A program made the translations under genes and the position numbers. Positions 13,933 to 40,856 of a stretch of DNA of 64,000 nt are shown one piece after another. The notes beneath the pieces are model-generated. The model was not told where the DNA came from and did not search any database. It saw only the letters and a list, made by a program, of their open reading frames with translations. Source of the DNA: Trypanosoma brucei. Lineage: Eukaryota. Location: positions 640,001 to 704,000 of the forward strand of contig CP000069.1 in assembly GCA_000002445.1 (NCBI GenBank), given 5' to 3'. How positions within the stretch are numbered: position 1 is the stretch's first letter; each line of letters opens with the position of its first letter.

Positions 13933-15504
13933 CTAGTACAATTGGGTGCCATGCAGCGTCAACTGCCCCCTTTCATCCATAACAGCTTCGCGGCTTGTAC
14001 TGCAAAAGCCGCGCTCATCTACTAATTCTGTCAGCAGCCCAGCATTGTTGTAATAACCTGCGGAGATATGTGGGCCCTTCAGCTTCAAATTCCCCCGAGT
14101 GTTGGCCGCAAGAATCCTCGCATCGGCCGTTCCACGATCACCAACCACTTTTGCTTCCACATGCGGAACCATCTCCCACCGAGCGCGCTTTAAAGAACGC
14201 CACATGACCATGTATGCACTCTCCAGCGGCCCCCGGAAGACAAAAACATCTTCAAGACCAAGCTCCTTTGCTAATTTCTGCAAATACTCATCGCCCACAG
14301 TGGGCTCACTCGCGTCCTCAAAAAGTACCACCCACTTGAGGTGTTCATATTGATCTGCATCAAAGTTACCCGCGTGACGAAGCAGGAGGTCAAAGTCTGA
14401 CTTCTTACCCAACATACCCACTACCTCCTCTACACAGAGTTTCTCTATGCCGTTGATAGCGTGGTCGTCTGTAAACATGTCACTGTGGATGTGCACAAGA
14501 ACAGCTCCAGTCGTAAGTGCGGCATACGGTGCAACAATGGCGCCTACAGGGTCCACGTGGTGGTTAGGCATTACACCAAAGCGCGACTCCGCCTTCAGGC
14601 CCATGAGATTACCAAACAGGAACCCAGCATTAATGCAGTTACGGTGAGAATAGGTGATGTGCAACTTGTCCTCTAGTGCCGGGTGCGGGTCCTCCAGGGC
14701 GAGGATGGGGTCATCGGGATGCAGGAGGGCAGAGAGACGACGCAACCGCTGCTCATAGTAAGAAAAGGGGCCCCACACGAGCATCTTACGCATTGGCGTC
14801 ACTCCCAGTAAGTTCATGTTGTGATCTGTTATGACCACCTTCTTAAGGAAGAAGAACTCCTGAGAGTGCACCCACTGAAACCGTTGCCCTGGATACGATA
14901 GTCCTAGCTCAGGTATGACATTGTAAATCATATCCCAGAAGTGCATGTTACGCTCCACCAGCACACCCTGCTTAACCTCCGGTACGACGATCCATTCACG
15001 AGCGATGAGGTGGTGTGGTTGAAATTCATTAAGATAAAACCGAAGTTTGTCAGCGCTTATATTGTGATGGGGCACAACAGCAAGAAGAGCCCCAATCTTG
15101 GCGCATGCCAATTGAAGCACAAACGTCTCGCAGTTGCACGGTTGTATCGCCAGCACCCTCTGTCCAGGGCGCAAGCCTGTTTGAAGAAGACCATGCGCCA
15201 GCGCTTCACTATTCTTTCGTATGTCAGCAAATGCCCACCGTACTGCCTGGTGCTCAATACGCAAGAAATCCTTGTAGTACATCTTGCGTGACTGAATGTT
15301 GACGTAATAACCAACCAGCTGATCGAGGACTGGCGTATCTACGGACCCGCTCGCCACTGAGTAATCCTTTCCTTCATTACTGCTTTTGGGAATCACTGGA
15401 GCAGACACAGCTGCAGGAGACGACGACAACAGAGCCGTAGAGTTCATGAATGGCCTCACAACATTTTTCCGAAAAGCGACACACCCGGCGAGGCGACGGA
15501 GCAT
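13933..15504 (-). CDS. AMP-binding (ANL superfamily, acyl-CoA-synthetase-like) protein with degenerate catalytic motifs and a mitochondrial-type presequence. Possibly a pseudo-enzyme.
   Basis: ANL-like block order. A3-like HITYSHRNCINAGF stands where TSGTTGxPKG is expected. GYYNN hinge. The A7/A8 region reads …FCSTSREAVMDERGQLTLHG… instead of …TGD…GR. N-terminal MLRRLAGCVAFRK presequence. Confidence 0.4.
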   Translation of the reverse strand: MLRRLAGCVAFRKNVVRPFMNSTALLSSSPAAVSAPVIPKSSNEGKDYSVASGSVDTPVLDQLVGYYVNIQSRKMYYKDFLRIEHQAVRWAFADIRKNSEALAHGLLQTGLRPGQRVLAIQPCNCETFVLQLACAKIGALLAVVPHHNISADKLRFYLNEFQPHHLIAREWIVVPEVKQGVLVERNMHFWDMIYNVIPELGLSYPGQRFQWVHSQEFFFLKKVVITDHNMNLLGVTPMRKMLVWGPFSYYEQRLRRLSALLHPDDPILALEDPHPALEDKLHITYSHRNCINAGFLFGNLMGLKAESRFGVMPNHHVDPVGAIVAPYAALTTGAVLVHIHSDMFTDDHAINGIEKLCVEEVVGMLGKKSDFDLLLRHAGNFDADQYEHLKWVVLFEDASEPTVGDEYLQKLAKELGLEDVFVFRGPLESAYMVMWRSLKRARWEMVPHVEAKVVGDRGTADARILAANTRGNLKLKGPHISAGYYNNAGLLTELVDERGFCSTSREAVMDERGQLTLHGTQLY

Positions 15505-15861: not shown

Positions 15862-18099
15862 TCACTTTTCGCCAGTACGAATGAGATTAATCAGCGACTG
15901 CATGTTACTTGCCTTTACGCATTCACGGCACTCGGCTACAAGTTGTGTTCTCGCCCTGCCGATACGTAGCTTACCCGCCTTCGCGATAAACCCATTGAGA
16001 CGCTTCAAAGCGCTTTTCAATTCTTTAAAATTGTTGGACAGCTTCAAGTTTTCATCAATAAGTTCCTTGTCAAGTTCATACAGTTGGGAGTAGTGGCGAC
16101 GCATGCTTACAATGTCCGATATCAGCCTCGAATCTTCAGCCCTCACAAGCAACGGTTTTATGTTTGTTGCAGCTTCCGCTATGTCATCACTCAGTTTCTG
16201 CCGCACCTTATCAAGATCTATAACACGTTCAACCGTCTCCTGCAGTTGCTGGAAGTCCTCCGGAAAATCACAACGGGACGTTGCCTCAGTAACACATGTC
16301 GTAGCAAAACTTTCGACAAGGATGCTGCATATATCCATGGAGTTACCACATATCTGCAACTCACATCTACTGAGAATTCCCCGAATCACCAATCCGGAGC
16401 GGTCCTGCAGATCCACAAAAGGAACAGAAAAATCGCTCGCAGTATCCGGAACACGATCCAACGGTACGTCAAACGTTTTTTGAAGCCACAGCGACACGCT
16501 ACCGAAGTCAAAATCCTTTGATAGCTGCAAAGTAACGCTTCCTGTGGGTTCTGAGAAGGATCCCCTACACCACTCATTTGGCCACAACCTGCACATGACA
16601 AACTTCGGGACTACAACATCGACTTCATGTACTTGGTAATTAACTGCGTTGGTAGAACCAACCATAACGGATGCCTTAAGTGTCACTTCCGGGCCCCGTG
16701 GAACATCAAGTCCGCAAACGAGTGTAGGCAGTGGATCCTGTGACATAAAGAGAATGTGCCCCTTTTCCGGAAACATAGCCTCACTACTGAGGATACAAGC
16801 GTAAATTATGGTATCTTGTTGACCGTTGATTACACTGAAAACCACATCAAGCTTCCCGGTTTGCGAGTTTGGCTGTAATTTGCAATCCACACCGGTTCCA
16901 ACCTTCGGTAAAGTCACATCCGTCCTACCACTCTTCTGCCTCACTAGCTGCTCCTTCACATTTGCTAACTCCTTCTCGAGCGCTTGCTTCTCCCTCATCA
17001 ACATATCAAGCTTAAGCGCCCCTTCCCGCTGCGCAACCATCGCTTCGTGCCTTCCCATCGTACCAGTCAGTTGTAAGCCACACACCGTTCCATCAACCGT
17101 ACATATGATCGGCAACGGTTGCCCGTTCTGGCGGTAGTCGTCTACCAGAACAGAACTTATTGGTGCGTCAAATGTTTCCTTACAAAGAACAGTCCCCTCG
17201 TTTCCGTCTCCGCTGCGCACCTCTACCCTTCCATTGTTCCAACCGATGATGAGCTCCGGCACGCCATCCATATCCACATCACAAAAAGCAGCAGATACCG
17301 GTCGCTGATTATCCTTCAATCGGTATAAACGCTCACATCTGTCGTATATGCCAACGGTACCACTATTTGAAAGATACGCAAACCGGCCCGGTACACCACT
17401 GTACACCAAACTGTGCACACGGTCTGCAAGACCAACACTTGTGATCGGCTCCTCACCGTCAAACACGCGTAGTTCAAAATCCTCTGATGCCGCAACTAAC
17501 GCCGGTGAGCCATTCAGCGTTGATGTTGAAGCGCACACGCCCGCGTCTGGCCAGGGCATAAGCATTAACGCGGTCACTCTGTCACCCGTTATGGTGGAAA
17601 ACACCTCCTCTCCACTTGAGTTGAAGCCGCTGATTGCGCAGTCCCCACCCACAATTGCCAGTGGAGCGGGTCCGCTCTTTGCTGTTGGGCCCACAACACC
17701 ACCCACTACCGCACTCACGCCATCTTCCACCTGTTTATAATAATATTCGCAGTTGCGCTCTACGTCATATGCTAACAAAGAGTTCGCTTCACCAAGAAAC
17801 AGTGCATCAACGCCTTCATTCTCATATCTCCCACCTATTGGTCCAGTTGCCAATGCAGTTAGTGCCTTACCAAAGTTAAAAGTCCGAAGCGGAGCTACCG
17901 AAGCATCCTCACGGTGAGCCGCTAGGGGGTTGCTTGTGTCATGCGTATGAACAATAACCTGACGGGTATTCGTCGCACACACAAGTGATGGTGTTTTCCC
18001 GTCGAAGCGCCCAATCGCAGCCAAACCTTCATTGAGTGATGCGTTGAGGCTTAACTGAAAGGCAGTCCGCATGGAGTAGCAGTTTGTCTGAAGACTCAT
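15862..18099 (-). CDS. BBS2: Bardet-Biedl syndrome protein 2 (BBSome subunit BBS2), 745 aa.
   Basis: [28 protein letters not shown] versus human [53 protein letters not shown]…[30 protein letters not shown] versus human [25 protein letters not shown]…[30 protein letters not shown]. Beta-propeller, coiled-coil and C-terminal domains appear in the same order as in BBS2. Confidence 0.75.
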   Translation of the reverse strand: [745 protein letters not shown]

Positions 18100-21000
18100 G
18101 ATGATGAGCCGCGGTTATGGCTACCAATCAACTAATCAATGGAATGAATGAAGAAAAAATTAATATATGTTCACGCTACCAGTATTTAAGTACCTGTGTT
18201 AAGTGGTTGTATACCTATTTCACAATAATGCAACCTCACCTCAAATGTTTGAAAGAACCGGTGACTAAAGGGGGAAAAAAAGAAACTAACCTAAGCGCGC
18301 CACCTTTCTTCTTTAACTTCTCTTTTTCTTCACCTCCCTCACTGAAGTGGAAGTGGCTCTGTTTTGTAACAAAAATAATACGCAAAACACAACACACTAA
18401 TAAGAAGATGACACACACATCACCGCGAATAAATAAATAGAGGTTTTTTTTTTCGGAAGGAGGAAAAAAGAAAAATAAAAAAAACAAGGAAAAGAGGAGC
18501 TAGAGGAATGAGGTCATAAGCAGAAAAGGAATAAGAGAAACCAAAGTCAGTGCATATCAATGGTTACCCACTGAAAGCACGACCGCAAAAAAAAAAAAAA
18601 AAGATGCACTCACGGAGATTTTGTAAGAAAATAAAAATAAATAATATAAAACACCCCTCAAACTTACACACATTTATATACTGGCACAAACAAACACGCA
18701 CTTCTCATCTACAACCTCGCCTCTCCAAATTCTTCTTTCTTTACCTTTTTTCTCCTGTCGTCTTAGTCCACCTAACAATAATTGTTATTATAATTATAAT
18801 TTTATTAATTTTTTAAATCACTTCATCCAATGACGACAATACCAATACCAATACCAATATCAATACCAATACCAATAACAACCACAACTACAACTACAAC
18901 AGCCAAAACAATAATAATCAAAAAACAAAACAAAACAGAAACTCATTTCCTTATCTTTACTCATATTATCACTTCGTCATACACACACACAAAAAAAAAA
19001 AACGCTCTCGTTACTCTTACACCCACAAATAAATACTAATGAATATAAACCTTAAATATATTTAAATGAAACCACAAACATTATACCTACCTCTTAACTT
19101 GCTTCCCTAGACAAGTTAAGAAAGAAAAAGAAAAGAAAAAAAACAAAAGAAAAGAAAAGAATCAAATGAAAACATTAAGAAAAATGATTCCGCGCATGAC
19201 AACAATAATAATAATAATAACACTATCGCTATTTCTCATCTCGTTATTTTCTTCCCCTTCCAATTCCTCTTTTCTTTCTTCATTATTTTTTTCTTATGCT
19301 TTCGCTTTCCTTTTTTTTTCTCTCTTTCTTTTTCTTTCTCTTTACCTTTTGCTCTGCTCGCCCATGCTGGGCATCCTCTAACAACAATTTTTATTATTAT
19401 TATTTTATTTATATGAAATCAACCGAATAATAAAGTAATACAGCCGGTTATAAGCGGTAAGGTGGTAACGACGAAACCACATACTTGTTGTTGTAATAAT
19501 AATAATAATTATTATTTTTTTCTCTTCATTCGTTACTCATTTAAGGAAGTAAGGAAAAGTGCAATGGTAATAATAATAACAATTATTACTATTATTATTA
19601 TTATTACCATCATTACGAATGGGATCTCTTCCCTTGAAACCCCGCAGTGGAACTGTTTTTTTTCTTTTTTTTAAAAAAAAGGTGTATGAAAACAAACATT
19701 TGATAAGTATTAAAAATTAATCAAATGAAGTTAAACAAATGAACTGAGTGATCGATTCGTGAGGAAACAAAAAGAAAAAAAAGAAAGAAAAGATAAAGAG
19801 ATAAAAAGAAAAAAGGAGGCTAAACAAACAAACAAACAAAGACGGAAGCGAAAGCGGACACGTCCCTTCCACACATTTTCCTCATTTCTTTCTTTTTTTT
19901 TGTTGTTGTTGTTCTTTACATATATATTTATATATTTATATATATATTCGTTACTGTTGTTGAGATTTCACCGTGTCACCAACTCCTTTTTTTTTCCATA
20001 TCACAACCGTCGTAAATCGTAACAGCGGTAATCATCACGACGCAAAGGCACTGAAAGATAAAACAACAAGAAAAAAAAGGAAAAATACAAATAAAATACA
20101 AATACAACGTTTCTCCCTATCGTGTCACTCATTCATTCATTTATTCATTTACTTAATTACTTATTTTTTGTTGCTGTTGTCGCGTTTCTACACTTCACTT
20201 CTGATGCTTAAAAAAAAAAAAAAGAGATAAAACAAAATAAGTAAAAAAAACAAAAAAAGAAAAAAGAAATTAAGCACTCCATTGGGTCCACCCGCCTCTT
20301 GTTTCATCCATTTCTTGTGTTGTTGCATTGAGGTGTTTTTTTTGTTTATTATTTTATTTTATTTTCTCCCTTCTTCGGTATTTTTTTTTTCAAAATTTAT
20401 ATTCGCTTCGTTACAAAAAACCGGCAGCGGCAATAACGGCGAGAAGTGAAAAAACAAAAACAAAAACACAAAAGAAAGTCCAACACGCCTCCTTTTCAAA
20501 AGAAAAAGAAAGAGAAAGAAAAGGATCCACCACACTACAACAAATCCAATTCAATTTCCTACAAAAATAAAAAATTTAAAAAAACAATTTCATTTTCTTC
20601 GGTGTTATTATTATTATTATTGCCACTGCTATTGCTTTTTTTTCCTTTCTTTTTGTCTTTTCCCTATATTTATCCCCTTTACACACAAACAAAAACAAAA
20701 ACAAAACAATTCACACGAACTCTCGCTTATATTTCTCCTCCTCTTTTTTTCTCTCTCGTTCCCTTTCCTTTACAAAATAAAAAATTTAGAAAAAAAACAA
20801 AAAAATTGCGCACTTTTTTTCCGTCAGACAAAATTGTTTATTTGCTTTTAGTCACTTATTTCCATGAGTGGGTGCGCATCTACAATAAAATCAAAAAAAA
20901 AGGAGAAGTTTTATATAAAACGGCTCCCGTAAAATACAAAAGAGGGAGAGAGAAAGATATTTAAAATAAATAAAAAAAAAGAAGAAACGAGAGGACCGCC

Positions 21001-24000
21001 ATAATAATAATAATAACAGGAATAAAAATAATAGGGAGTAATAATGGGGAAAAGAATATCATATCAAAGGAGAAGGAGGAATAAGGGAAAAAAAAAGGAA
21101 AAACGGGGGGGGGAAAAAAAAGGGAAACTAAACAAAAAAAAACGACAACAACAAAACAACAGCGGCATTGAGTACACTGCACGAGAGGAATTTTTTTAAA
21201 AAAAATTAAAACTTGTAAGTAATGACAGGGGAAACTAAAAAACGGGGATCATCACTTAAGTGACTAAAAGGAAGAAAGAGATAGAAAAACAAAAAAAAAG
21301 GGGAAAATGAAGGGAAGGGAAATCACATAATAAAGGAATATTTAAGAGGGTTAGGGAAGGAAGGAAGGGGGAAAAAAAAAAACAGAAACGGAAACGGAAT
21401 ACTTTGAGGCTAACAAAAAAAAAAGAGACAACGGAATAAAATAAATAAAAACGCCACAGAGAGGACGAACGAAAAAAAAATTGTTTTTTTTTTTTGATTC
21501 CACAGAAGGAGAGTTAGTAAAAAAAAAGAAGGAAAAGTAAGGGAGGGCGCGCACCGAAGTCGAACACACAAAAACACACAAATAAGCACGAAAATAAAAG
21601 AAAATTAGAAAAAGAAAAAGAAAGAAAAAAGAAACATAACGGAATTGAGAAAGTGTTGCCGAAAAGAGTAAAGTGAAACAACCAACACGACAAAAAGAGG
21701 CATAAGAAATATCGAACAACCGATATTAAAATAATCTCACAGATATGAAAGCGACGGTTGTTGTTGTTGCTGTTGTTTCTCTTTTTTTTCTTTTGCGCGT
21801 GTGTTGGTGTACTGATTCATTCATTCATTCGCTCACATCCGTCCAGAGGAATATAAAAACAAAAAACCAAAGAACAAAAGGGAATACGGCAGTTTTAAAT
21901 ATACGAATATTTACAAATATATGCAAAAAAGAAAAAAATGAGTATTAACTCGTAAATATAACTGCTGTGTTAGGTATAATAAACATAATTTAAACATATA
22001 AATATATAAATGCGTGTGCATTTGCATTTGTACACACGGATACGCCCAAACGCGACTTCTCAAAAAAAAAAAAAACAGCAGTGATAGAAAACAAAAACAA
22101 AAATAAGCGCTCCCGTGCGATGTACCACATTTCCGCAATTGGCGTCGGGGAGAAACCAAATCAAAGACAAAAGTAAGGAGGAGAAAAAATCAAAGGGGAA
22201 CATAAAGGAAGAATGAAGACGTGGGACATTTTATCTATTTTGCAATATAATAACATTAATAATAAACAAAACATGGGCGGGACTCACACGAAACACAGAC
22301 TAATATAGAAGTAGAAGCTATAAACACATAATTATATTTATTTACATTAATAATATCAAAAGGAAATACGCGTTAGAGTATGAAGAAACGGAAACTGAGA
22401 AGTAGTGAAAGGAGGAATGCCAAGGTTCACGCCATTTTTTAATGATCCAGCATTCAGAAGAGAAACAAACAACAAAAAGACAAAAAGGCATTCATTACCT
22501 CTTATTTGCCCTCACTTCCCTTTTTTTTTCTTTTTGGTAGTTTACTCTTGTCCCCCTCCATTTCTTTTTCTTTTTTAGTTCTCCGTTTGTTCGTTTACTC
22601 TTGTTTTTGTTTTTTGGTTTGTGTCTTTTGCCTCGCCACATGTGTCACATCAGTCCCCATCTGATTTCATTAAATCTTTCACTCTTCTGTAGCTTCATTT
22701 GGCCCCTTTATTCTCCTTTTTTTCTATTGCTTATTTATTTGGCGCATCTACGCACACATATACACATACGCAAGCATAAATTAAAGTAAAAAACATCAAC
22801 CGCTTCCTCCCCCCCTTTATTAAAAATGAAAATCATTATTTAACCATTATACATATGTGCACATATATATATATATATATATATAACGTAAATAAACACA
22901 AATACATCAACCAATAGATATATATATTTATATTCCCTCCTTCCTTCAATCAATCCAGTACTTCTTCCGTGATATTATTTCCCCTTTTCATTTACCTCTC
23001 CTTCTTCATCCCCACATAGTCCCCAAAGTAAAATTGAAAGAAAATGAAACAACGACAAAACAACTGAAAGGATGAAGACAACCCAACGTATGCAAGAAAC
23101 AAGGAAAAAGAGAGAGAGAAGGAAAAACAAAGTGAGAGGGGTTTAAATTTTAAAAAAAAATCCAATCACCCAGGTCCAAAAGTGAAGAGTGGACAAGAGA
23201 GGAGTCAAAAAAAAAAAAGGAAAAAGAAGAGAGTGAAGAACAGCAACAAACCATGCCAACAGTCAACTACAGTAGTAATAATAGTAATAATATAAAGGAA
23301 AACTGGAAAAAACATCAGAAAGTCAAGAGCACACTATGTGCATATATAGTGCTGACGCATAGATGCATCTTCACAAGGAGGGAACACCGTAACAACAACA
23401 ACAAAACAAAACAAAATTCTGAAGCAAAGCAAATCCAAGCAAACAAGTAAAAGGGGACAGGAATATTTTGCCTCGGTCACTTAACTCCGTGGCCACTCCC
23501 ACCACATCGAGCGAAACAGTATGCGGGGGAGAAAAGAAATGGACAACTATTGACGTATATAAACATAGATATATAGATAAATATCTGTTGTTGCTCTTGT
23601 TGTCATTGATGATGTTAAGGTGTGCGCCTCATATACAAATATGCATATTTAAATATATATATATATTTATATATATATACATGAAAAGGTATTAGACGAG
23701 GGATAATAACAAAATCAGGAATATTCCCTCCAAAGTACAAACGACTCGGTGCGGCCCAGTTGGTGGGGACGAAAGAGGAACAAAGAGCCCCGCTGAGCAC
23801 ACACACGCACACACACACAACAAAAAGGAGGAGAGAGGGTAAAGTGACAGAGGCAATCAAAGGAAATGAAAGGAAAATAGGAAGGTAGGGAAAATTAGTT
23901 TCGGAATACAACTTGGTTATATAGTATATAAAACCAATAAATACAAACCAGCAGACAGTGGTGCTGCTTCTTTTACTTCATTCCTTTCCCTCACTACTTA

Positions 24001-24215
24001 TTGTTATTTCATTTTTCTTCTTTATTCTCTTTTACCTTAATCCCTTTAGATTCTTTGATACTATTTTGTACCCGCCCATTCCCCCCTTTTTTTTAATTGG
24101 CTAATTGGGAACATAGAGGAAAAGGTATTCGTCTGGCGCCATGCACTTTAACTCGTCTTCTGGGGTAAATTTTGCACTGGCTTGTTTGTTTTCTTCGTTG
24201 ATTCCTGAGTTCCGC
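18100..24215. repeat. 6.1-kb gene-free AT-rich low-complexity block between BBS2 (5' end) and the kinase gene (3' end). It is packed with microsatellites: (CCAATA)n around 18835-18875, (ATA)n/(TAA)n, (CAA)n, (TA)n, (CATT)n, long A- and T-homopolymers. Blocks alternate between pyrimidine-rich and purine-rich on the plus strand.
   Basis: No ORF above about 120 aa. Every ORF the track lists here is poly-K/F/I/L low-complexity. Composition was read directly from the sequence. Confidence 0.8.
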
Positions 24216-26135
24216 TCAGCGGCTGACAATGGGCAACTTCGTCGTCCTCGCGCAAGCATCACCGGCTATTCCCACTCCCTTCCTTCGACCCTTGCGCGGG
24301 TCACTAGTACGACTATCGAGAGGTGCCGTGCTGCTGCTGCATGAGATGGACAGACGTCGCCGAACGTTGCTCTGGCGGAAGCTGTTCATGCGGGGACGCC
24401 GGCCAGATTCGATGCCAAGAAGACTCCCACATCCCCTCATGCCAATCACGGCATGTCCTGAAGGAATGTGAGTGCTAAGCAGTGAAACGCGGCTCCGTTC
24501 AGCCCCATTAATGGGGCTTGTCGTCGCAGCTGCAACCTTGTTCGTAACACTTGCCACATCGATTTGCGAACACGCGCTTGCAAGTGAGCAATCCATCAGG
24601 CTACAACTTCGTACGGAGTCCGCCTTTCCCTTGCCCTTTATCCATGGGTGTCGCAGCAACTGTCGCGCCGTTAGACGCTCCCTCGGGTTGGTACGGGTAC
24701 ATTGACGAATGAACTCTTTGGCACCCTCGGGAAGGTGCTCTGGGATGTGCCTCTCGAGTTCACCTCGTAGAATAGCAAACATAACTGCCATACAGTTGTC
24801 TAGCTGCCAGAAGGGGGGATGACCGGTTAGCATCTCAAGTACGCAACAGCCCACGGACCAGATATCAGCCGTGTAGCTGTGCCCACTGCAGTTAATCACT
24901 TCAGGCGCCATAAAATTCGGCGTTCCAGCGACACTATTCGTTACTATAGTTGACTGCAAATCTTTGCTAGTACCGAAATCACCAACTTTCAAGACGCCAT
25001 TCCCTGTTATAAACAAATTGTCCCCCTTCAGATCGCGGTGCACGATGCGCCGCTTGTGAAGGTATGCTAAACCCTCTAGCAACTGTCGAGTATAGTTACG
25101 AGTCTCCTCCTCGCTCAGAGCCCCTTCGGTTTTAAGCTTGCTAGCGATGGTGCCACCACTAATGTACTCCATGTATATCAACAGCGCGCAGCACCCCTCG
25201 TCGCGTCGTGAAGAAAAGTACTTCACAATATGCTTGTGATTCAACTTGCGCATCACACGAATTTCCCGTTCCAGCGCGCATAGTTGCTTCTCTGTGTCCC
25301 TGTCAATATCTGAAGATACAATAATCTGCTTCACCGCAAGCTCCGCCCCTGTGTCCAGGTCAGTTGCACGAAATACATCGCCGAACATCCCACGACCGAT
25401 ACGTTCCTCTATCCGCACATTGACGATCTTTCTACGTAGGGCAGTTTCTGTGGTGGTGGAGACACCCGGAGTTCGGAGAGCCGGAGAGGCACTTCGGTCT
25501 AACAGATTGATCGAGTTTCCGGTGACGTCTACAGCGGAAGTGCCAGTGACACCATTGAGTTGATTCGTGCTCGCCACACTGGCCCTCCCATCTCCAATGC
25601 ACGTTGTGCTACACGTGGCCACACTTTCCATCTCAAGTACTTTTGTAAACTCAAGCGTGGAGGATAGTAACGATGCACTGCACGACGGGTCACCGCTTGT
25701 CGAATTCGACCTGCTACAGCTTGCTTTGTCACCCTCCGGCGTGTTTTCCAATATTTGCGTTGGGACGTCCTTTGTCAATTCGCCTAACCACGAATCAAGT
25801 GCTTCTTGACTGGCTTCTAGCACTCCACTCGCCATTTCGCTCGCCACATCATCTACTTCCTCACTGAATGCCGTTACACTAGTGACTGCAGATAGTGTGT
25901 TACTCGGTGTTCGGTCGAGTTGTACGAGTTGGTTTGGTCTCTGAAGTGCCTTTACAGTCCGTACGATGGGGCGGGGGGTAACCGCACCGGTATGCAAACG
26001 ACTTGTATAAACACCAGTACCCGCTAGACGAGCGTTCACCGATATCAAATCACGACGCCGCAGGGCCTCCGCGGCTAGTGGCCGATGGCCGTCCTCCGGT
26101 GGAGCACACGGGTGGCAATTTTCCAAGAGGGACAT
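24216..26135 (-). CDS. Ser/Thr protein kinase of the STE group (MAP3K/STE11-like). A 235-aa N-terminal extension rich in S/T precedes the kinase domain.
   Basis: Canonical kinase subdomains are present. GxGxxG loop IGRGMFGDVF, catalytic HRDLKGDNLF, activation-segment DFG…TPNFMAPE, then DIWSVGCCVLEM. Best resemblance is to STE11/MEKK kinases. Confidence 0.8.
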   Translation of the reverse strand: MSLLENCHPCAPPEDGHRPLAAEALRRRDLISVNARLAGTGVYTSRLHTGAVTPRPIVRTVKALQRPNQLVQLDRTPSNTLSAVTSVTAFSEEVDDVASEMASGVLEASQEALDSWLGELTKDVPTQILENTPEGDKASCSRSNSTSGDPSCSASLLSSTLEFTKVLEMESVATCSTTCIGDGRASVASTNQLNGVTGTSAVDVTGNSINLLDRSASPALRTPGVSTTTETALRRKIVNVRIEERIGRGMFGDVFRATDLDTGAELAVKQIIVSSDIDRDTEKQLCALEREIRVMRKLNHKHIVKYFSSRRDEGCCALLIYMEYISGGTIASKLKTEGALSEEETRNYTRQLLEGLAYLHKRRIVHRDLKGDNLFITGNGVLKVGDFGTSKDLQSTIVTNSVAGTPNFMAPEVINCSGHSYTADIWSVGCCVLEMLTGHPPFWQLDNCMAVMFAILRGELERHIPEHLPEGAKEFIRQCTRTNPRERLTARQLLRHPWIKGKGKADSVRSCSLMDCSLASACSQIDVASVTNKVAAATTSPINGAERSRVSLLSTHIPSGHAVIGMRGCGSLLGIESGRRPRMNSFRQSNVRRRLSISCSSSTAPLDSRTSDPRKGRRKGVGIAGDACARTTKLPIVSR

Positions 26136-27560
26136 GGTGTCCGTGGGAGCGTGCGTATATGTGGCACGCGAGGAGGAACGCTACAATTTACCCTCTACTA
26201 ATTTCTTTTCCTTTTTTTCTTGAAACCTTTCTTTGTATGTTGGTGGCGAACCGAGACACACCAATGATCTCTTTCTTGACTTCTCTTCCTCCTGTGCGGA
26301 TACCACCCACAAACGGTCCGGCTTTTGCGACTATTGAAGGGACAAAAAAGGAAAAAAAATGATGCTATGAATGTGGGTACGTTCGAAAAGAAGGATAGAA
26401 AAACAATCTTTACTGTTACAAAATGAATACGTATACATATACGTATTCATTTATATATGTATACGGATATATATTCGTATATAAATGTGCTGCGTGAAGC
26501 AAATACAGGCGGAATTGTGCCTTGTTCATTGATGCGGGGGAACATAAACGGCACAGATGAGAAGAGCAGAATTACAGAACATATGCAACAACGAAAAGAA
26601 CGTGCATGTGGTGAAATTTCCAAATGTTTAAACAGAACTTGACAAATTCTAAAGTACCAGTCACAACTCTTTAACAATCACAAGCATTTGCTACAATAAT
26701 AACAGTTATAGAGCAAGCATGCAATAAATTTTGTAATCCCGCAGAACCCACCCGCCGTCACCGCACAAGTGCGGACTGTGCGCTCGCACAAACCCCATAC
26801 TCCACAATCCCACCATTCAAGACGAAAATTTTAAAAAGTACTGAATGCAAAAATCTGAAGAATAACAAAAAGAAAAGGAAAACAAAGCAAAGAAAAGAAA
26901 AGTGAGAAAAAAAAACATTAAGTAACAACCACAGTTTCGCTCACACTCTAACCCTCCCATGACACCCCAATTCCATCATATTCTCATAATATGTATGTTA
27001 GCATCAGCCCCCGTGGAGGCTTGCAGGCACACACGCATATGCCTACATGCCATCGACGTAGCACCACCACGGGGGGAGGAAGACGCATTCCTTCCTTCTA
27101 TACACAATGAGACCATGGAGCAAAAAGAAAAAAAACTGACGGTGACAAAACATCGCGAAGGGGGGTGGAAATATATATAACATCACATCATATTGCTACG
27201 AGTAACAATGGTAATAGATGACAGAAAACTAGGGAAACTTTCTCTGTTTTGATTGAAAAGTTAACGGTATGCAACAAAACGAGTGGTCATTCACCCATTG
27301 CTTTCGATAAGAATACTAAAGACGAAAAATATATATATATATATGAATGGTACACGTTTGATGCACCGCCCCCTGCCAGCAAAATATTACTAAGTATTTT
27401 GATGTTTCCGGGCACTAGGAAAAATGGCACGGACGTAAAGCACATAAAATGGAAAAGTGAAGCTCAAGAATCAAAGAAAACGAGGACAGAAAAAGAAGCG
27501 CCGGGACACTCCGCAGCACCGATGAGAACTCTCACGCCACTGCGAAGATGAGAGTGGGCA

Positions 27561-30331: not shown

Positions 30332-30663
30332 CTTCGGTCCTGTTAACCTACGTGAGTGCCCTACAAACAGGGGGTACGAGGGACAAAAGTGAATAGAAGT
30401 ATAAGATGAAAATAGATTCTGTAGGCTGCGGCTCTAACTCAGCATATAGACTCCTCTTTTGTTCCTCATTAGTGCTGTGAGTTGAACCGAACAAAGAGTT
30501 GTCCTCCGCTTCAACGTGCCATCCCCCCCCCCCCCCCACAGAACACCAAGGGTTGATATAAATTAAAGCCACAACCCTTGGATACTCCATTATGTGGCAA
30601 CACTCATAGAACATTGAAAATACTTAATCAGTGCCGAATCGTATACTCCATTGTTCACCGACA

Positions 30664-40835: not shown

Positions 40836-40856
40836 CCCCCCCCCCCCCCCCCCCCC
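40836..40856. repeat. Homopolymer (C)21 on the plus strand, which is (G)21 on the transcribed minus-sense strand, in the spacer between the NudC-like gene and the downstream hypothetical gene.
   Basis: Read directly: attct + 21 C + ggtgg. Confidence 0.9.

What the first reader, a model, noticed from the sequence alone, without database searches (positions are those of the whole stretch)
18100..24215. 6.1-kb gene-free, microsatellite-saturated AT-rich block inside a polycistronic unit
Typical inter-CDS spacing elsewhere in the window is 0.5-1.5 kb. Here 6.1 kb separates the kinase 3' end from the BBS2 5' end with no ORF above about 120 aa, and every candidate ORF is homopolymeric low complexity. 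It is too long for an ordinary UTR pair. It may hold unannotated non-coding transcripts, a very long regulated 3' UTR of the kinase, an assembly-collapsed repeat, or a fragile or recombinogenic site.
Basis: seen in the sequence. Interest (0 to 1): 0.55.

Follow-up and report, generated by a model that had tools for sequence, protein, structure and literature searches.

The report
Long kinase 3' UTR, already annotated
The 6.1-kb gene-free, AT-rich stretch is almost entirely the already-annotated 5.6-kb 3' untranslated region of a Trypanosoma brucei protein-kinase mRNA (Tb927.6.2030), a known kind of long, repeat-rich regulatory UTR, so it is real but ordinary.

Summary
Window 18100-24215 is a 6,116-bp ORF-poor block between the stop codon of a STE11-type kinase and the ATG of BBS2, both on the minus strand of one polycistronic unit. 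Its GC content is 33%, and tandem repeats cover 23% of it against 3% of neighbouring spacers.

The window is T. brucei TREU927 chromosome 6, 640001-704000, and the kinase is Tb927.6.2030. A published table built from the TriTrypDB annotation gives this gene a 3' UTR at chr6 658627-664215. That is window 18627-24215, 5,589 nt, or 91% of the block. The remaining 527 nt carry the polypyrimidine tracts and AG acceptors for BBS2.

- **Assembly:** three other Trypanozoon assemblies give the same size (6,034-6,156 bp) at 96-98% identity, so it is not an assembly artefact.
- **Coding and RNA families:** there is no sense-strand ORF, no Rfam hit, no tRNA, no complex repeat and no ORF conserved across species.
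- **Synteny:** the kinase-to-BBS2 spacer is the longest local gap in T. vivax (4.0 kb), T. cruzi (3.6), T. theileri (3.0) and L. donovani (7.3), with no sequence conservation.

Several-kb, low-complexity 3' UTRs are a described property of trypanosome protein-kinase and RNA-binding-protein mRNAs. Verdict: already known, low interest. Processing at the many cryptic splice signals inside the UTR remains untested.

The parts
24216..26135 (-). CDS of the protein kinase Tb927.6.2030 (STE/STE11, MAP3K-like; XP_845324.1 / Q584V3)
   Evidence: Pfam Pkinase 1.5e-71. Exact match to the T. brucei TREU927 protein. The nearest non-kinetoplastid relatives are MAP3K2/ANP1-type kinases. The Tb927.6.2030 RNAi primers of Jones et al. 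2014 match 26116-26135(-) and 25717-25736(+) exactly.
18627..24215 (-). Annotated 3' UTR of Tb927.6.2030, 5,589 nt, AT-rich and low-complexity
   Evidence: Trenaman et al. 2024, Supplementary Data 1, lists UTR_Start 658627 and UTR_End 664215 for gene Tb927.6.2030, strand -, on Tb927_06_v5.1. UTR_End + 1 equals the kinase stop at window 24216 if the window starts at chr6 640001. No sense-strand ATG ORF of 60 aa or more. No Rfam or tRNA hit.
18100..18626 (-). Processing region after the poly(A) site plus the BBS2 5' UTR: polypyrimidine tracts and candidate spliced-leader acceptor AGs
   Evidence: Sense-strand tracts lie at 18604-18587 (U-rich, 18 nt, 23 nt downstream of the annotated UTR end), 18540-18518, 18499-18455 and 18285-18267. 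The first AGs after them are at 18572, 18501, 18398 and 18266. Which AG is used is inferred, not shown.
15862..18099 (-). BBS2 CDS (BBSome subunit 2), the next gene downstream in the unit
   Evidence: Six BBS2 Pfam domains: BBS2_N 2.1e-29, BBS2_hp, BBS2_Mid, BBS2_GAE, BBS2_pf and BBS2_CtH.
19100..19360 (-). Example of a poly-purine tract that can pair with a nearby poly-pyrimidine tract within the UTR RNA
   Evidence: Inverted repeat I1: arms 19119-19183 and 19275-19339, 65 nt, 71% complementary. RNA fold MFE -62.1 kcal/mol, z = -2.85 against shuffles.
22863..22885 (.). (AT)11.5 microsatellite. Other AT repeats lie at 23645-23679 and 19920-19947
   Evidence: TRF. (AU)n repeats of 9 units or more occur in at least 580 annotated T. 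brucei 3' UTRs and affect expression in a context-dependent way in the RBP10 UTR (PMC8982893).
21246..22421 (-). UTR fragment tested in the published massively parallel reporter assay (chr6 661246-662421)
   Evidence: Trenaman 2024, Supplementary Data 1, row 541: fully contained in the UTR, read counts 0-1 in all arms, p = 0.157, not a hit. The result is uninformative rather than negative.

Best explanation
The block is the 3' untranslated region of the mRNA for the STE11-type protein kinase Tb927.6.2030 (window 18627-24215, 5,589 nt). It is followed by about 0.5 kb holding the polypyrimidine tracts and AG acceptors that direct trans-splicing of the downstream BBS2 mRNA. In trypanosomes these same signals set the upstream poly(A) site.

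RNA polymerase II reads through the whole region as part of one polycistronic unit. The kinase mRNA is cleaved and polyadenylated only at the distal site, so it carries a long A/U-rich tail of low-complexity sequence: poly-U/pyrimidine tracts, A-rich purine tracts, and (AU)n, (AAU)n and similar repeats.

By analogy with characterised long UTRs (RBP10, RDK2, ZC3H20-22), this tail probably works in two ways. It may be a large platform for RNA-binding proteins that set mRNA abundance and translation. It may also keep the mRNA of a signalling protein at a low level. That part is inference.

The UTR contains roughly 20 internal polypyrimidine tracts. About 13 of these are followed by an AG within 60 nt. 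Use of these cryptic processing signals must normally be suppressed, as DRBD18 does for other long UTRs. This step is also inferred.

Shown here: the gene identities, the annotated UTR coordinates, the absence of coding or known RNA genes, the assembly consistency and the syntenic conservation of a long spacer.
For: 1. **Identity.** The window is T. brucei TREU927 chr6. The kinase is Tb927.6.2030 by exact primer matches.
2. **Published UTR.** The coordinates 658627-664215 (-) for Tb927.6.2030 abut the stop codon exactly and cover 91% of the block. TREU927 UTRs were mapped from poly(A)-enriched and SL-enriched RNA-seq and ribosome footprints (bioRxiv 10.64898/2026.02.24.707742).
3. **Processing signals.** The annotated end lies 23 nt upstream of an 18-nt U-rich tract. 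Further tracts and AGs lie before the BBS2 ATG. This is the expected coupled polyadenylation and trans-splicing layout (PMC11405848 introduction).
4. **Nothing else encoded.** No sense-strand ORF of 60 aa or more. A T. b. gambiense 'gene' call in the block is broken by stops in TREU927 and T. equiperdum. No Pfam hit on any block ORF. No ORF conserved across five species' spacers. No Rfam family at gathering score, and only chance-level hits at E<=1. No tRNA. No complex internal repeats.
5. **Assembly.** The block is 6,156 bp in T. b. gambiense and 6,034 bp in T. b. equiperdum, collinear at 96-98% identity. The substitution rate is 7.9-9.9 per kb, like other spacers at 6.4-11.2 per kb.
6. **Known class.** The median T. 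brucei 3' UTR is about 400 nt, but mRNAs for RNA-binding proteins and protein kinases often have several-kb UTRs. [quoted passage not shown] The sense strand here has 44 pyrimidine tracts and 29 purine tracts of 12 nt or more.
7. **Synteny.** The spacer downstream of the orthologous kinase is the longest local gap in T. vivax, T. cruzi, T. theileri and L. donovani, 5.8-9.3 times the local median.
Against: - I did not see primary RNA-seq, SL or poly(A) reads. The UTR coordinates come second-hand, from a supplementary table built on the TriTrypDB GFF.
- The window offset of 640000 is inferred from the exact abutment of UTR_End to the stop codon, not stated anywhere.
- Annotated UTRs record one dominant site and do not exclude shorter isoforms or separately processed RNAs from the ~13 internal polypyrimidine-plus-AG signals.
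- No regulatory activity has been shown. The single MPRA fragment from this UTR had near-zero counts.
- The RBP10 motif UAUUUUUU is absent from the sense strand, 0 observed against 3.6 expected.
- No sequence element is conserved outside Trypanozoon, so no specific cis-element can be named.
Confidence: 0.88

Rival explanations
1. The block is a composite. The kinase has a shorter 3' UTR. One or more independent non-coding RNAs (lncRNAs) are produced from the distal part by trans-splicing at internal polypyrimidine/AG signals, with coupled polyadenylation upstream of each.
For: Twenty sense-strand polypyrimidine tracts of 15 nt or more (U >= 60%) lie within the annotated UTR, and four more lie in the processing region. 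About 13 of the internal tracts are followed by an AG within 60 nt, including 57-60-nt tracts at 21322-21266, 20269-20210 and 19819-19761. Non-coding RNAs arising from within long 3' UTRs are documented after DRBD18 depletion (PMC9380746). Intergenic processed RNAs are described in PMC6597758. More than 1,000 lncRNAs have been reported in T. brucei (from my own knowledge of PMC9200285; its tables were not available).
Against: The curated annotation assigns the whole 5.6 kb to the kinase as one UTR. The one nanopore lncRNA supplement that could be searched names neither flanking gene. No conserved structure or Rfam family was found. Sequence evolves at the ordinary spacer rate.
Confidence: 0.2
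2. Assembly artefact: a collapsed or mis-assembled simple-repeat region whose true size or content differs.
For: The short-read T. equiperdum OVI contig ends inside the block, 5,797 nt after the kinase stop, and contains 80 N. This shows the region is hard to assemble from short reads.
Against: TREU927, T. b. gambiense DAL972 and T. b. equiperdum GCA_003543875.1 give 6,116, 6,156 and 6,034 bp. They are collinear end to end at 96-98% identity and differ only by small indels. No long-period tandem array is present; the largest TRF period is 33. There are no complex internal duplications.
Confidence: 0.02
3. A structural chromosome element, such as a centromere-like AT-rich array, replication origin, internal transcription boundary, or fragile or recombinogenic site, rather than transcript sequence.
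For: It has the lowest GC in the window, 0.29-0.35 per kb. Small-indel density is about twice that of other spacers, 21.6-25 against 3-18 nt per kb.
Against: The block lies inside a unidirectional gene array about 22 kb from the strand-switch region. From my own knowledge, T. brucei centromeres, origins and transcription boundaries map mainly to strand-switch regions, and centromeres carry arrays of about 147 bp; none is present here. Gene order and orientation across the block are conserved from Leishmania to T. brucei, so there is no sign of recurrent breakage. The substitution rate is ordinary.
Confidence: 0.03

Closest known systems
RBP10 (Tb927.8.2780) 7.3-kb 3' UTR of T. brucei
   Same: A multi-kb 3' UTR of a regulatory-protein mRNA inside a polycistronic unit. 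It is full of low-complexity sequence, including (AU)n repeats, poly(A) tracts and internal polypyrimidine tracts that could act as splice signals (PMC8982893; PMC9380746).
   Different: RBP10's UTR has been dissected experimentally: at least six independent regulatory fragments, with DRBD18-dependent suppression of internal processing. Nothing equivalent exists for Tb927.6.2030, and its one MPRA fragment gave no signal.
[quoted passage not shown] 2024), e.g. RDK2 and ZC3H20-22
   Same: The gene class is the same (protein kinase). Length is 5.6 kb. Both A-rich purine tracts and U-rich pyrimidine tracts are dense, and they are able to pair with each other. This matches the description in PMC11405848 and PMC6597758.
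   Different: I could not check whether this mRNA is developmentally regulated or up-translated in bloodstream forms. I could not apply the paper's exact motif-density threshold (more than 20 FIMO motifs per kb).
T. brucei lncRNAs embedded between or within UTRs (e.g. grumpy, PMC9200285)
   Same: They lie in ORF-free inter-CDS sequence of a polycistronic unit, and are potentially generated by internal trans-splicing and polyadenylation.
   Different: No independent transcript has been shown here. No snoRNA or structured RNA was detected. The region is annotated as UTR.

Membership tests
Long regulatory 3' UTR of a trypanosome regulator (kinase or RBP) mRNA | Lies immediately downstream of the stop codon, on the coding strand, within the same polycistronic unit | tested here: met
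   The kinase stop is at 24216 and the block begins at 24215 on the minus strand. All neighbouring genes are on the minus strand.
Long regulatory 3' UTR of a trypanosome regulator (kinase or RBP) mRNA | Experimentally mapped or annotated poly(A) site that places the sequence inside the mRNA | tested here: met
   Annotated UTR 658627-664215 for Tb927.6.2030, taken from the TriTrypDB GFF as used in PMC11405848 Supplementary Data 1. This is second-hand; primary reads were not inspected.
Long regulatory 3' UTR of a trypanosome regulator (kinase or RBP) mRNA | Polypyrimidine tract plus AG acceptor for the next gene shortly downstream of the poly(A) site | tested here: met
   An 18-nt U-rich tract lies 23 nt after the UTR end with an AG at 18572. 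Further tracts and AGs lie up to 18266, before the BBS2 ATG at 18099.
Long regulatory 3' UTR of a trypanosome regulator (kinase or RBP) mRNA | No protein-coding or known structured-RNA gene within it | tested here: met
   No sense-strand ORF of 60 aa or more. Antisense ORFs are 107 aa or shorter with ATG starts and have no Pfam hit. No ORF is conserved across species. Rfam and tRNA scans are negative.
Long regulatory 3' UTR of a trypanosome regulator (kinase or RBP) mRNA | Low-complexity composition with abundant A-rich purine and U-rich pyrimidine tracts | tested here: met
   44 pyrimidine tracts and 29 purine tracts of 12 nt or more on the sense strand. Purine or pyrimidine runs of 10 nt or more cover 21% of the block against 10.6% of other spacers. 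TRF coverage is 23% against 3.4%.
Long regulatory 3' UTR of a trypanosome regulator (kinase or RBP) mRNA | Demonstrated effect on mRNA abundance or translation (reporter assay) | tested here: inconclusive
   Only one fragment (window 21246-22421) is listed for this UTR in the sheet of the published MPRA table that could be searched. Its counts are 0-1 and it is not a hit.
Long regulatory 3' UTR of a trypanosome regulator (kinase or RBP) mRNA | One continuous transcript from CDS to distal poly(A) site (Northern blot or long reads) | not testable with these tools
   No read-level transcript data were accessible.
Independent lncRNA locus | Its own spliced-leader acceptor and poly(A) site, giving a transcript separate from the flanking mRNAs | not testable with these tools
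   Candidate signals exist. The lncRNA tables were not available, or did not name either flanking gene.
snoRNA / small structured RNA cluster | Match to a curated RNA family or tRNA model | tested here: not met
   No hit at gathering score. The best sub-threshold hit scores 24.7 bits against a cut-off of 45 (plasmodium_snoR20, E = 0.22). I saw no D box (CUGA) near its 3' end when reading the sequence.
Centromeric / satellite array | Long tandem array of a repeat unit of about 147 bp, located at a strand-switch region (from my own knowledge of T. brucei centromeres) | tested here: not met
   The largest TRF period is 33 nt with 2 copies. There are no complex direct repeats. The block lies inside a unidirectional gene array.
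Assembly-collapsed repeat | Length or content disagrees between independent assemblies | tested here: not met
   6,116, 6,156 and 6,034 bp in three assemblies, collinear at 96-98% identity.

The most novel reading that the evidence does not exclude
The spacer downstream of this STE11 kinase is the longest local gap in every trypanosomatid lineage examined: 3.0-7.3 kb, or 5.8-9.3 times the local median. Yet it shares no detectable sequence outside Trypanozoon. This could mean that UTR length or architecture itself is under selection for this kinase across the whole trypanosomatid family. Selection might act on the load of tracts, on many redundant protein-binding sites, or on low mRNA output. 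Alternatively, the distal part could yield conserved-by-position lncRNAs from internal splice signals. My evidence shows the length conservation but tests neither selection nor internal transcripts.
Probability: 0.15. Interest if true: 0.4.

Novelty: already known. Interest (0 to 1): 0.1.

Why it matters
It matters little as a discovery. The region is already annotated as the Tb927.6.2030 3' UTR, and its type is described in reviews and in a genome-scale reporter study.

- **Use for the scan.** It is a calibration case. In trypanosomatid sequence, a multi-kb AT-rich, low-complexity, ORF-free gap downstream of a kinase or RNA-binding-protein gene should be read as a long 3' UTR by default.
- **Small added value.** An unusually long downstream spacer is a syntenic property of this kinase from Leishmania to T. 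brucei. The extreme AT-richness and repeat load are specific to Trypanozoon.
- **Practical use.** Tb927.6.2030 would be a reasonable extra test case for studies of why regulators carry very long UTRs.

Tried and rejected
- **Known RNA genes.** Rfam at gathering score on the whole window gave 0 hits. Rfam at E<=1 on the block gave only (TA)n-driven miRNA noise and a 24.7-bit snoRNA-like hit far below threshold. The tRNA scan gave 0.
- **Hidden genes.** Six antisense ATG ORFs and the 172-aa GTG ORF have no Pfam hit. The two 'genes' called in the block by the T. b. gambiense annotation were examined. The sense-strand one is broken by stops or frameshifts in TREU927 and T. equiperdum. The antisense one is intact but has no homologue outside Trypanozoon. 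Six-frame ORFs of 40 aa or more from the spacers of five species share no cross-species blastp hit.
- **Internal duplication as the origin of the length.** Self-blastn and the repeat finder found only low-complexity matches.
- **Conserved cis-elements.** Sensitive blastn against the T. vivax, T. cruzi, T. theileri and L. donovani spacers gave only short low-complexity matches.
- **RBP10 motif.** UAUUUUUU occurs 0 times on the sense strand, against 3.6 expected.
- **Literature look-ups that gave nothing useful.**
  - Full-text search for Tb927.6.2030 found 0 papers.
  - The BBS2 plus Tb927.6 search found 0 papers.
  - Supplements were not held for Siegel 2010, the DRBD18 paper or Guegan 2022.
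  - The nanopore lncRNA supplement had no mention of either flanking gene.
  - Kolev 2010 gave only an abundance-type row.
- **Exact-sequence look-up of the TREU927 kinase** found no contig. The 100%-identical-length cluster representative P0002 was used instead.

Full report
**What is at the coordinates.**
The window carries a run of long ORFs on the minus strand from about 1.5 to 46 kb, and a plus-strand run from about 50 kb. This is a divergent strand-switch region flanked by two polycistronic units. The ORF at 24216..26135(-) has a protein-kinase domain (Pkinase, 1.5e-71). The ORF at 15862..18099(-) has all six BBS2 domains.

The block is the longest inter-ORF gap in the window. The other 17 gaps in the same unit are 93-1,425 bp, median about 780. 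Its GC content is the lowest at 0.329, against 0.35-0.51 for the other gaps. Tandem repeats (TRF score >=30) cover 23.4% of it, against 3.4% of the other spacers pooled and 1% of CDS. Purine or pyrimidine runs of 10 nt or more cover 21%, against 10.6%. 'Saturated' is too strong a word.

**Source and gene identity.**
The kinase protein is identical to XP_845324.1 / Q584V3 of T. brucei brucei TREU927, on a 1,618,915-bp contig, which is chromosome 6. Its closest non-kinetoplastid relatives are MAP3K2/ANP1-type kinases. The only STE11 kinase on chromosome 6 in the kinome table of Jones et al. 2014 is Tb927.6.2030 (PMC3894213 supplement). The two RNAi primers listed for that gene match the window exactly, at 26116-26135(-), which is the start codon, and at 25717-25736(+). 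The kinase is therefore Tb927.6.2030.

**The block is already annotated as this kinase's 3' UTR.**
Supplementary Data 1 of Trenaman et al. [quoted passage not shown] For Tb927.6.2030 it lists Tb927_06_v5.1, UTR 658627-664215, strand -. That is 5,589 nt. UTR_End + 1 = 664216 coincides with the kinase stop at window 24216 if the window is chr6 640001-704000. This offset is an inference from an exact fit. The UTR then maps to window 18627-24215, or 91% of the block.

TREU927 UTR annotation derives from poly(A)-enriched RNA-seq, SL-enriched RNA-seq and ribosome footprinting (bioRxiv 10.64898/2026.02.24.707742). One fragment of this UTR (window 21246-22421) was in the reporter library. It had counts of 0-1 in every arm, so it is uninformative.

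**The remaining 527 nt fit the trypanosome processing layout.**
On the sense strand, the annotated UTR end is followed 23 nt later by an 18-nt U-rich tract (18604-18587) and an AG at 18572. Pyrimidine tracts then follow at 18540-18518, 18499-18455 and 18285-18267, with AGs at 18501, 18398 and 18266. Polyadenylation in these organisms is coupled to the downstream polypyrimidine tract and trans-splice site (PMC11405848 introduction). Which AG serves BBS2 is inferred, not shown.

**Nothing else could be found in the block.**
- No ATG ORF of 60 aa or more exists on the transcribed strand. The longest ATG ORF is antisense, 107 aa, at 18117-18440.
- The 172-aa GTG ORF listed by the bacterial-code ORF finder is antisense. 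No block ORF has a Pfam match.
- T. b. gambiense annotation calls two small genes in the block. The sense-strand one is interrupted by stops or frameshifts in TREU927 and T. equiperdum. The antisense one is intact but has no relative outside Trypanozoon.
- Six-frame ORFs of the equivalent spacers of T. brucei, T. vivax, T. cruzi, T. theileri and L. donovani share no blastp hit.
- Rfam gives nothing at gathering score, and only chance-level hits at E<=1. There are no tRNAs.
- Self-comparison finds only low-complexity matches, so there is no hidden duplicated unit or satellite.

**It is not an assembly artefact and not unusually unstable.**
The kinase-to-BBS2 distance is 6,156 bp in T. b. gambiense DAL972 and 6,034 bp in T. 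b. equiperdum GCA_003543875.1. I believe the latter is the IVM-t1 MiSeq plus PacBio hybrid assembly of PMC6395869, but that link is not tool-verified. Both are collinear with the window at 96-98% identity. A short-read T. equiperdum OVI contig ends within the block.

Against T. b. gambiense and T. b. equiperdum, the block has 7.9-9.9 substitutions per kb. Other spacers have 6.4-11.2 and CDS has 2.2-5.1. Indel nucleotides are 21.6-25 per kb in the block and 3-18 in other spacers. This is ordinary spacer evolution with extra repeat slippage.

**Synteny.**
Gene order is conserved in all species fetched: HisRS, RRS1, cytochrome-b5 reductase, kinase, BBS2, AMP-binding protein.

| Species | Kinase-to-BBS2 spacer (bp) | Median of neighbouring gaps (bp) |
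|---|---|---|
| T. b. gambiense | 6,156 | 766 |
| T. vivax | 4,007 | 686 |
| T. cruzi | 3,560 | 381 |
| T. theileri | 3,035 | 434 |
| L. donovani | 7,325 | 1,083 |

In T. vivax, BBS2 is uncalled in that annotation but was found intact by tblastn. The spacer upstream of the kinase is the second longest in each species.

The long spacer is therefore ancestral, not a T. brucei expansion. Outside Trypanozoon there is no sequence similarity beyond simple repeats. This agrees with the reported rapid divergence of trypanosomatid UTRs. The strong AT bias relative to neighbouring spacers is seen only in the T. brucei group.

**How it most likely works.**
The literature describes exactly this class.
- The median T. 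brucei 3' UTR is about 400 nt. mRNAs for RNA-binding proteins and protein kinases often carry UTRs several kb long. The suggested reasons are to keep abundance low or to allow denser, more flexible control. [quoted passage not shown]
- UTRs longer than 2 kb with dense A-rich purine and U-rich pyrimidine tracts are enriched for protein kinases. The authors propose that they tune translation through tract dosage, and through masking of purine tracts by pyrimidine tracts (PMC11405848).
- The RBP10 7.3-kb UTR holds at least six independent regulatory segments. It also has (AU)n repeats with context-dependent effects (PMC8982893).

The present UTR has 44 pyrimidine tracts and 29 purine tracts of 12 nt or more on the sense strand. 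It has many purine/pyrimidine inverted repeats. One example hairpin (19100-19360) folds at -62.1 kcal/mol, z = -2.85. It also has (AT)n repeats at 22863-22885, 23645-23679 and 19920-19947. That it functions as a protein-binding and regulatory platform is inference by analogy.

The UTR also contains 20 internal polypyrimidine tracts of 15 nt or more (U >= 60%). About 13 of them are followed by an AG within 60 nt. These are potential cryptic trans-splice signals. In other long UTRs DRBD18 suppresses such sites, and when that fails, truncated mRNAs and UTR-derived non-coding RNAs appear (PMC9380746). Whether this happens here is untested, and it is the only realistic residual uncertainty.

**Verdict.**
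The options of assembly collapse, fragile site and lineage-specific expansion are not supported. The region is already annotated and belongs to a described class, so novelty is 'already known' and interest is low. The conserved length without conserved sequence across trypanosomatids is a modest point that I did not see stated for this gene.

Noticed in passing
window 51762-55575: A second long ORF-free stretch: 3.8 kb, GC 0.45, no ORF of 150 aa or more. It lies downstream of a GrpE-domain ORF (51066-51761, +) in the plus-strand unit. It may be another long UTR or may hold small genes.
   Followed up: partly
window 46021-50028: A divergent strand-switch region between the minus-strand and plus-strand gene arrays. 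GC skew changes sign here, and it holds only small ORFs of 125 aa or less. Presumably a transcription start region.
   Followed up: no
L004 about 16039-18294 (T. vivax GCA_021307395.1, SOPI01000505.1): BBS2 is not called in this T. vivax annotation. Yet tblastn finds a full-length, uninterrupted match (residues 1-745, 54% identity) between the kinase and the AMP-binding gene. This looks like a missed gene call.
   Followed up: yes
L003 (T. equiperdum OVI, CZPT02001900.1), locus end at 17717: The short-read contig terminates inside the block, 5,797 nt after the kinase stop, and carries 80 N. This shows that the low-complexity UTR breaks short-read assemblies.
   Followed up: partly
window 18117-18440 (+); L002 17730-18059: An antisense 107-109-aa ATG ORF overlaps the BBS2 5' UTR region and is called as a gene in T. 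b. gambiense DAL972. It is intact in all Trypanozoon assemblies, with one in-frame 2-codon indel. It has no Pfam hit and no homologue outside Trypanozoon. Probably a spurious call.
   Followed up: partly
window 26136-27560, and equivalent spacers in L004, L006, L007, L008: The spacer upstream of the kinase (cytochrome-b5 reductase to kinase) is the second longest local gap in every species: 1.4 kb in T. brucei, 1.75 in T. vivax, 2.6 in T. cruzi, 1.6 in T. theileri and 4.7 in L. donovani. The kinase may also have a long 5' UTR, or the reductase a long 3' UTR.
   Followed up: no
window 40836-40856 and 30523-30537: Perfect C21 and C15 homopolymer runs on the plus strand (G runs on the sense strand) sit in short spacers of the minus-strand unit.
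   Followed up: no
window 13933-15504 (-): The AMP-binding-domain protein next to BBS2 belongs to a cluster in which one member carries the PDB chain label 6HIV_BC. It may therefore be a component of a solved T. brucei complex. From memory, 6HIV is the mitoribosome; this was not checked.
   Followed up: no
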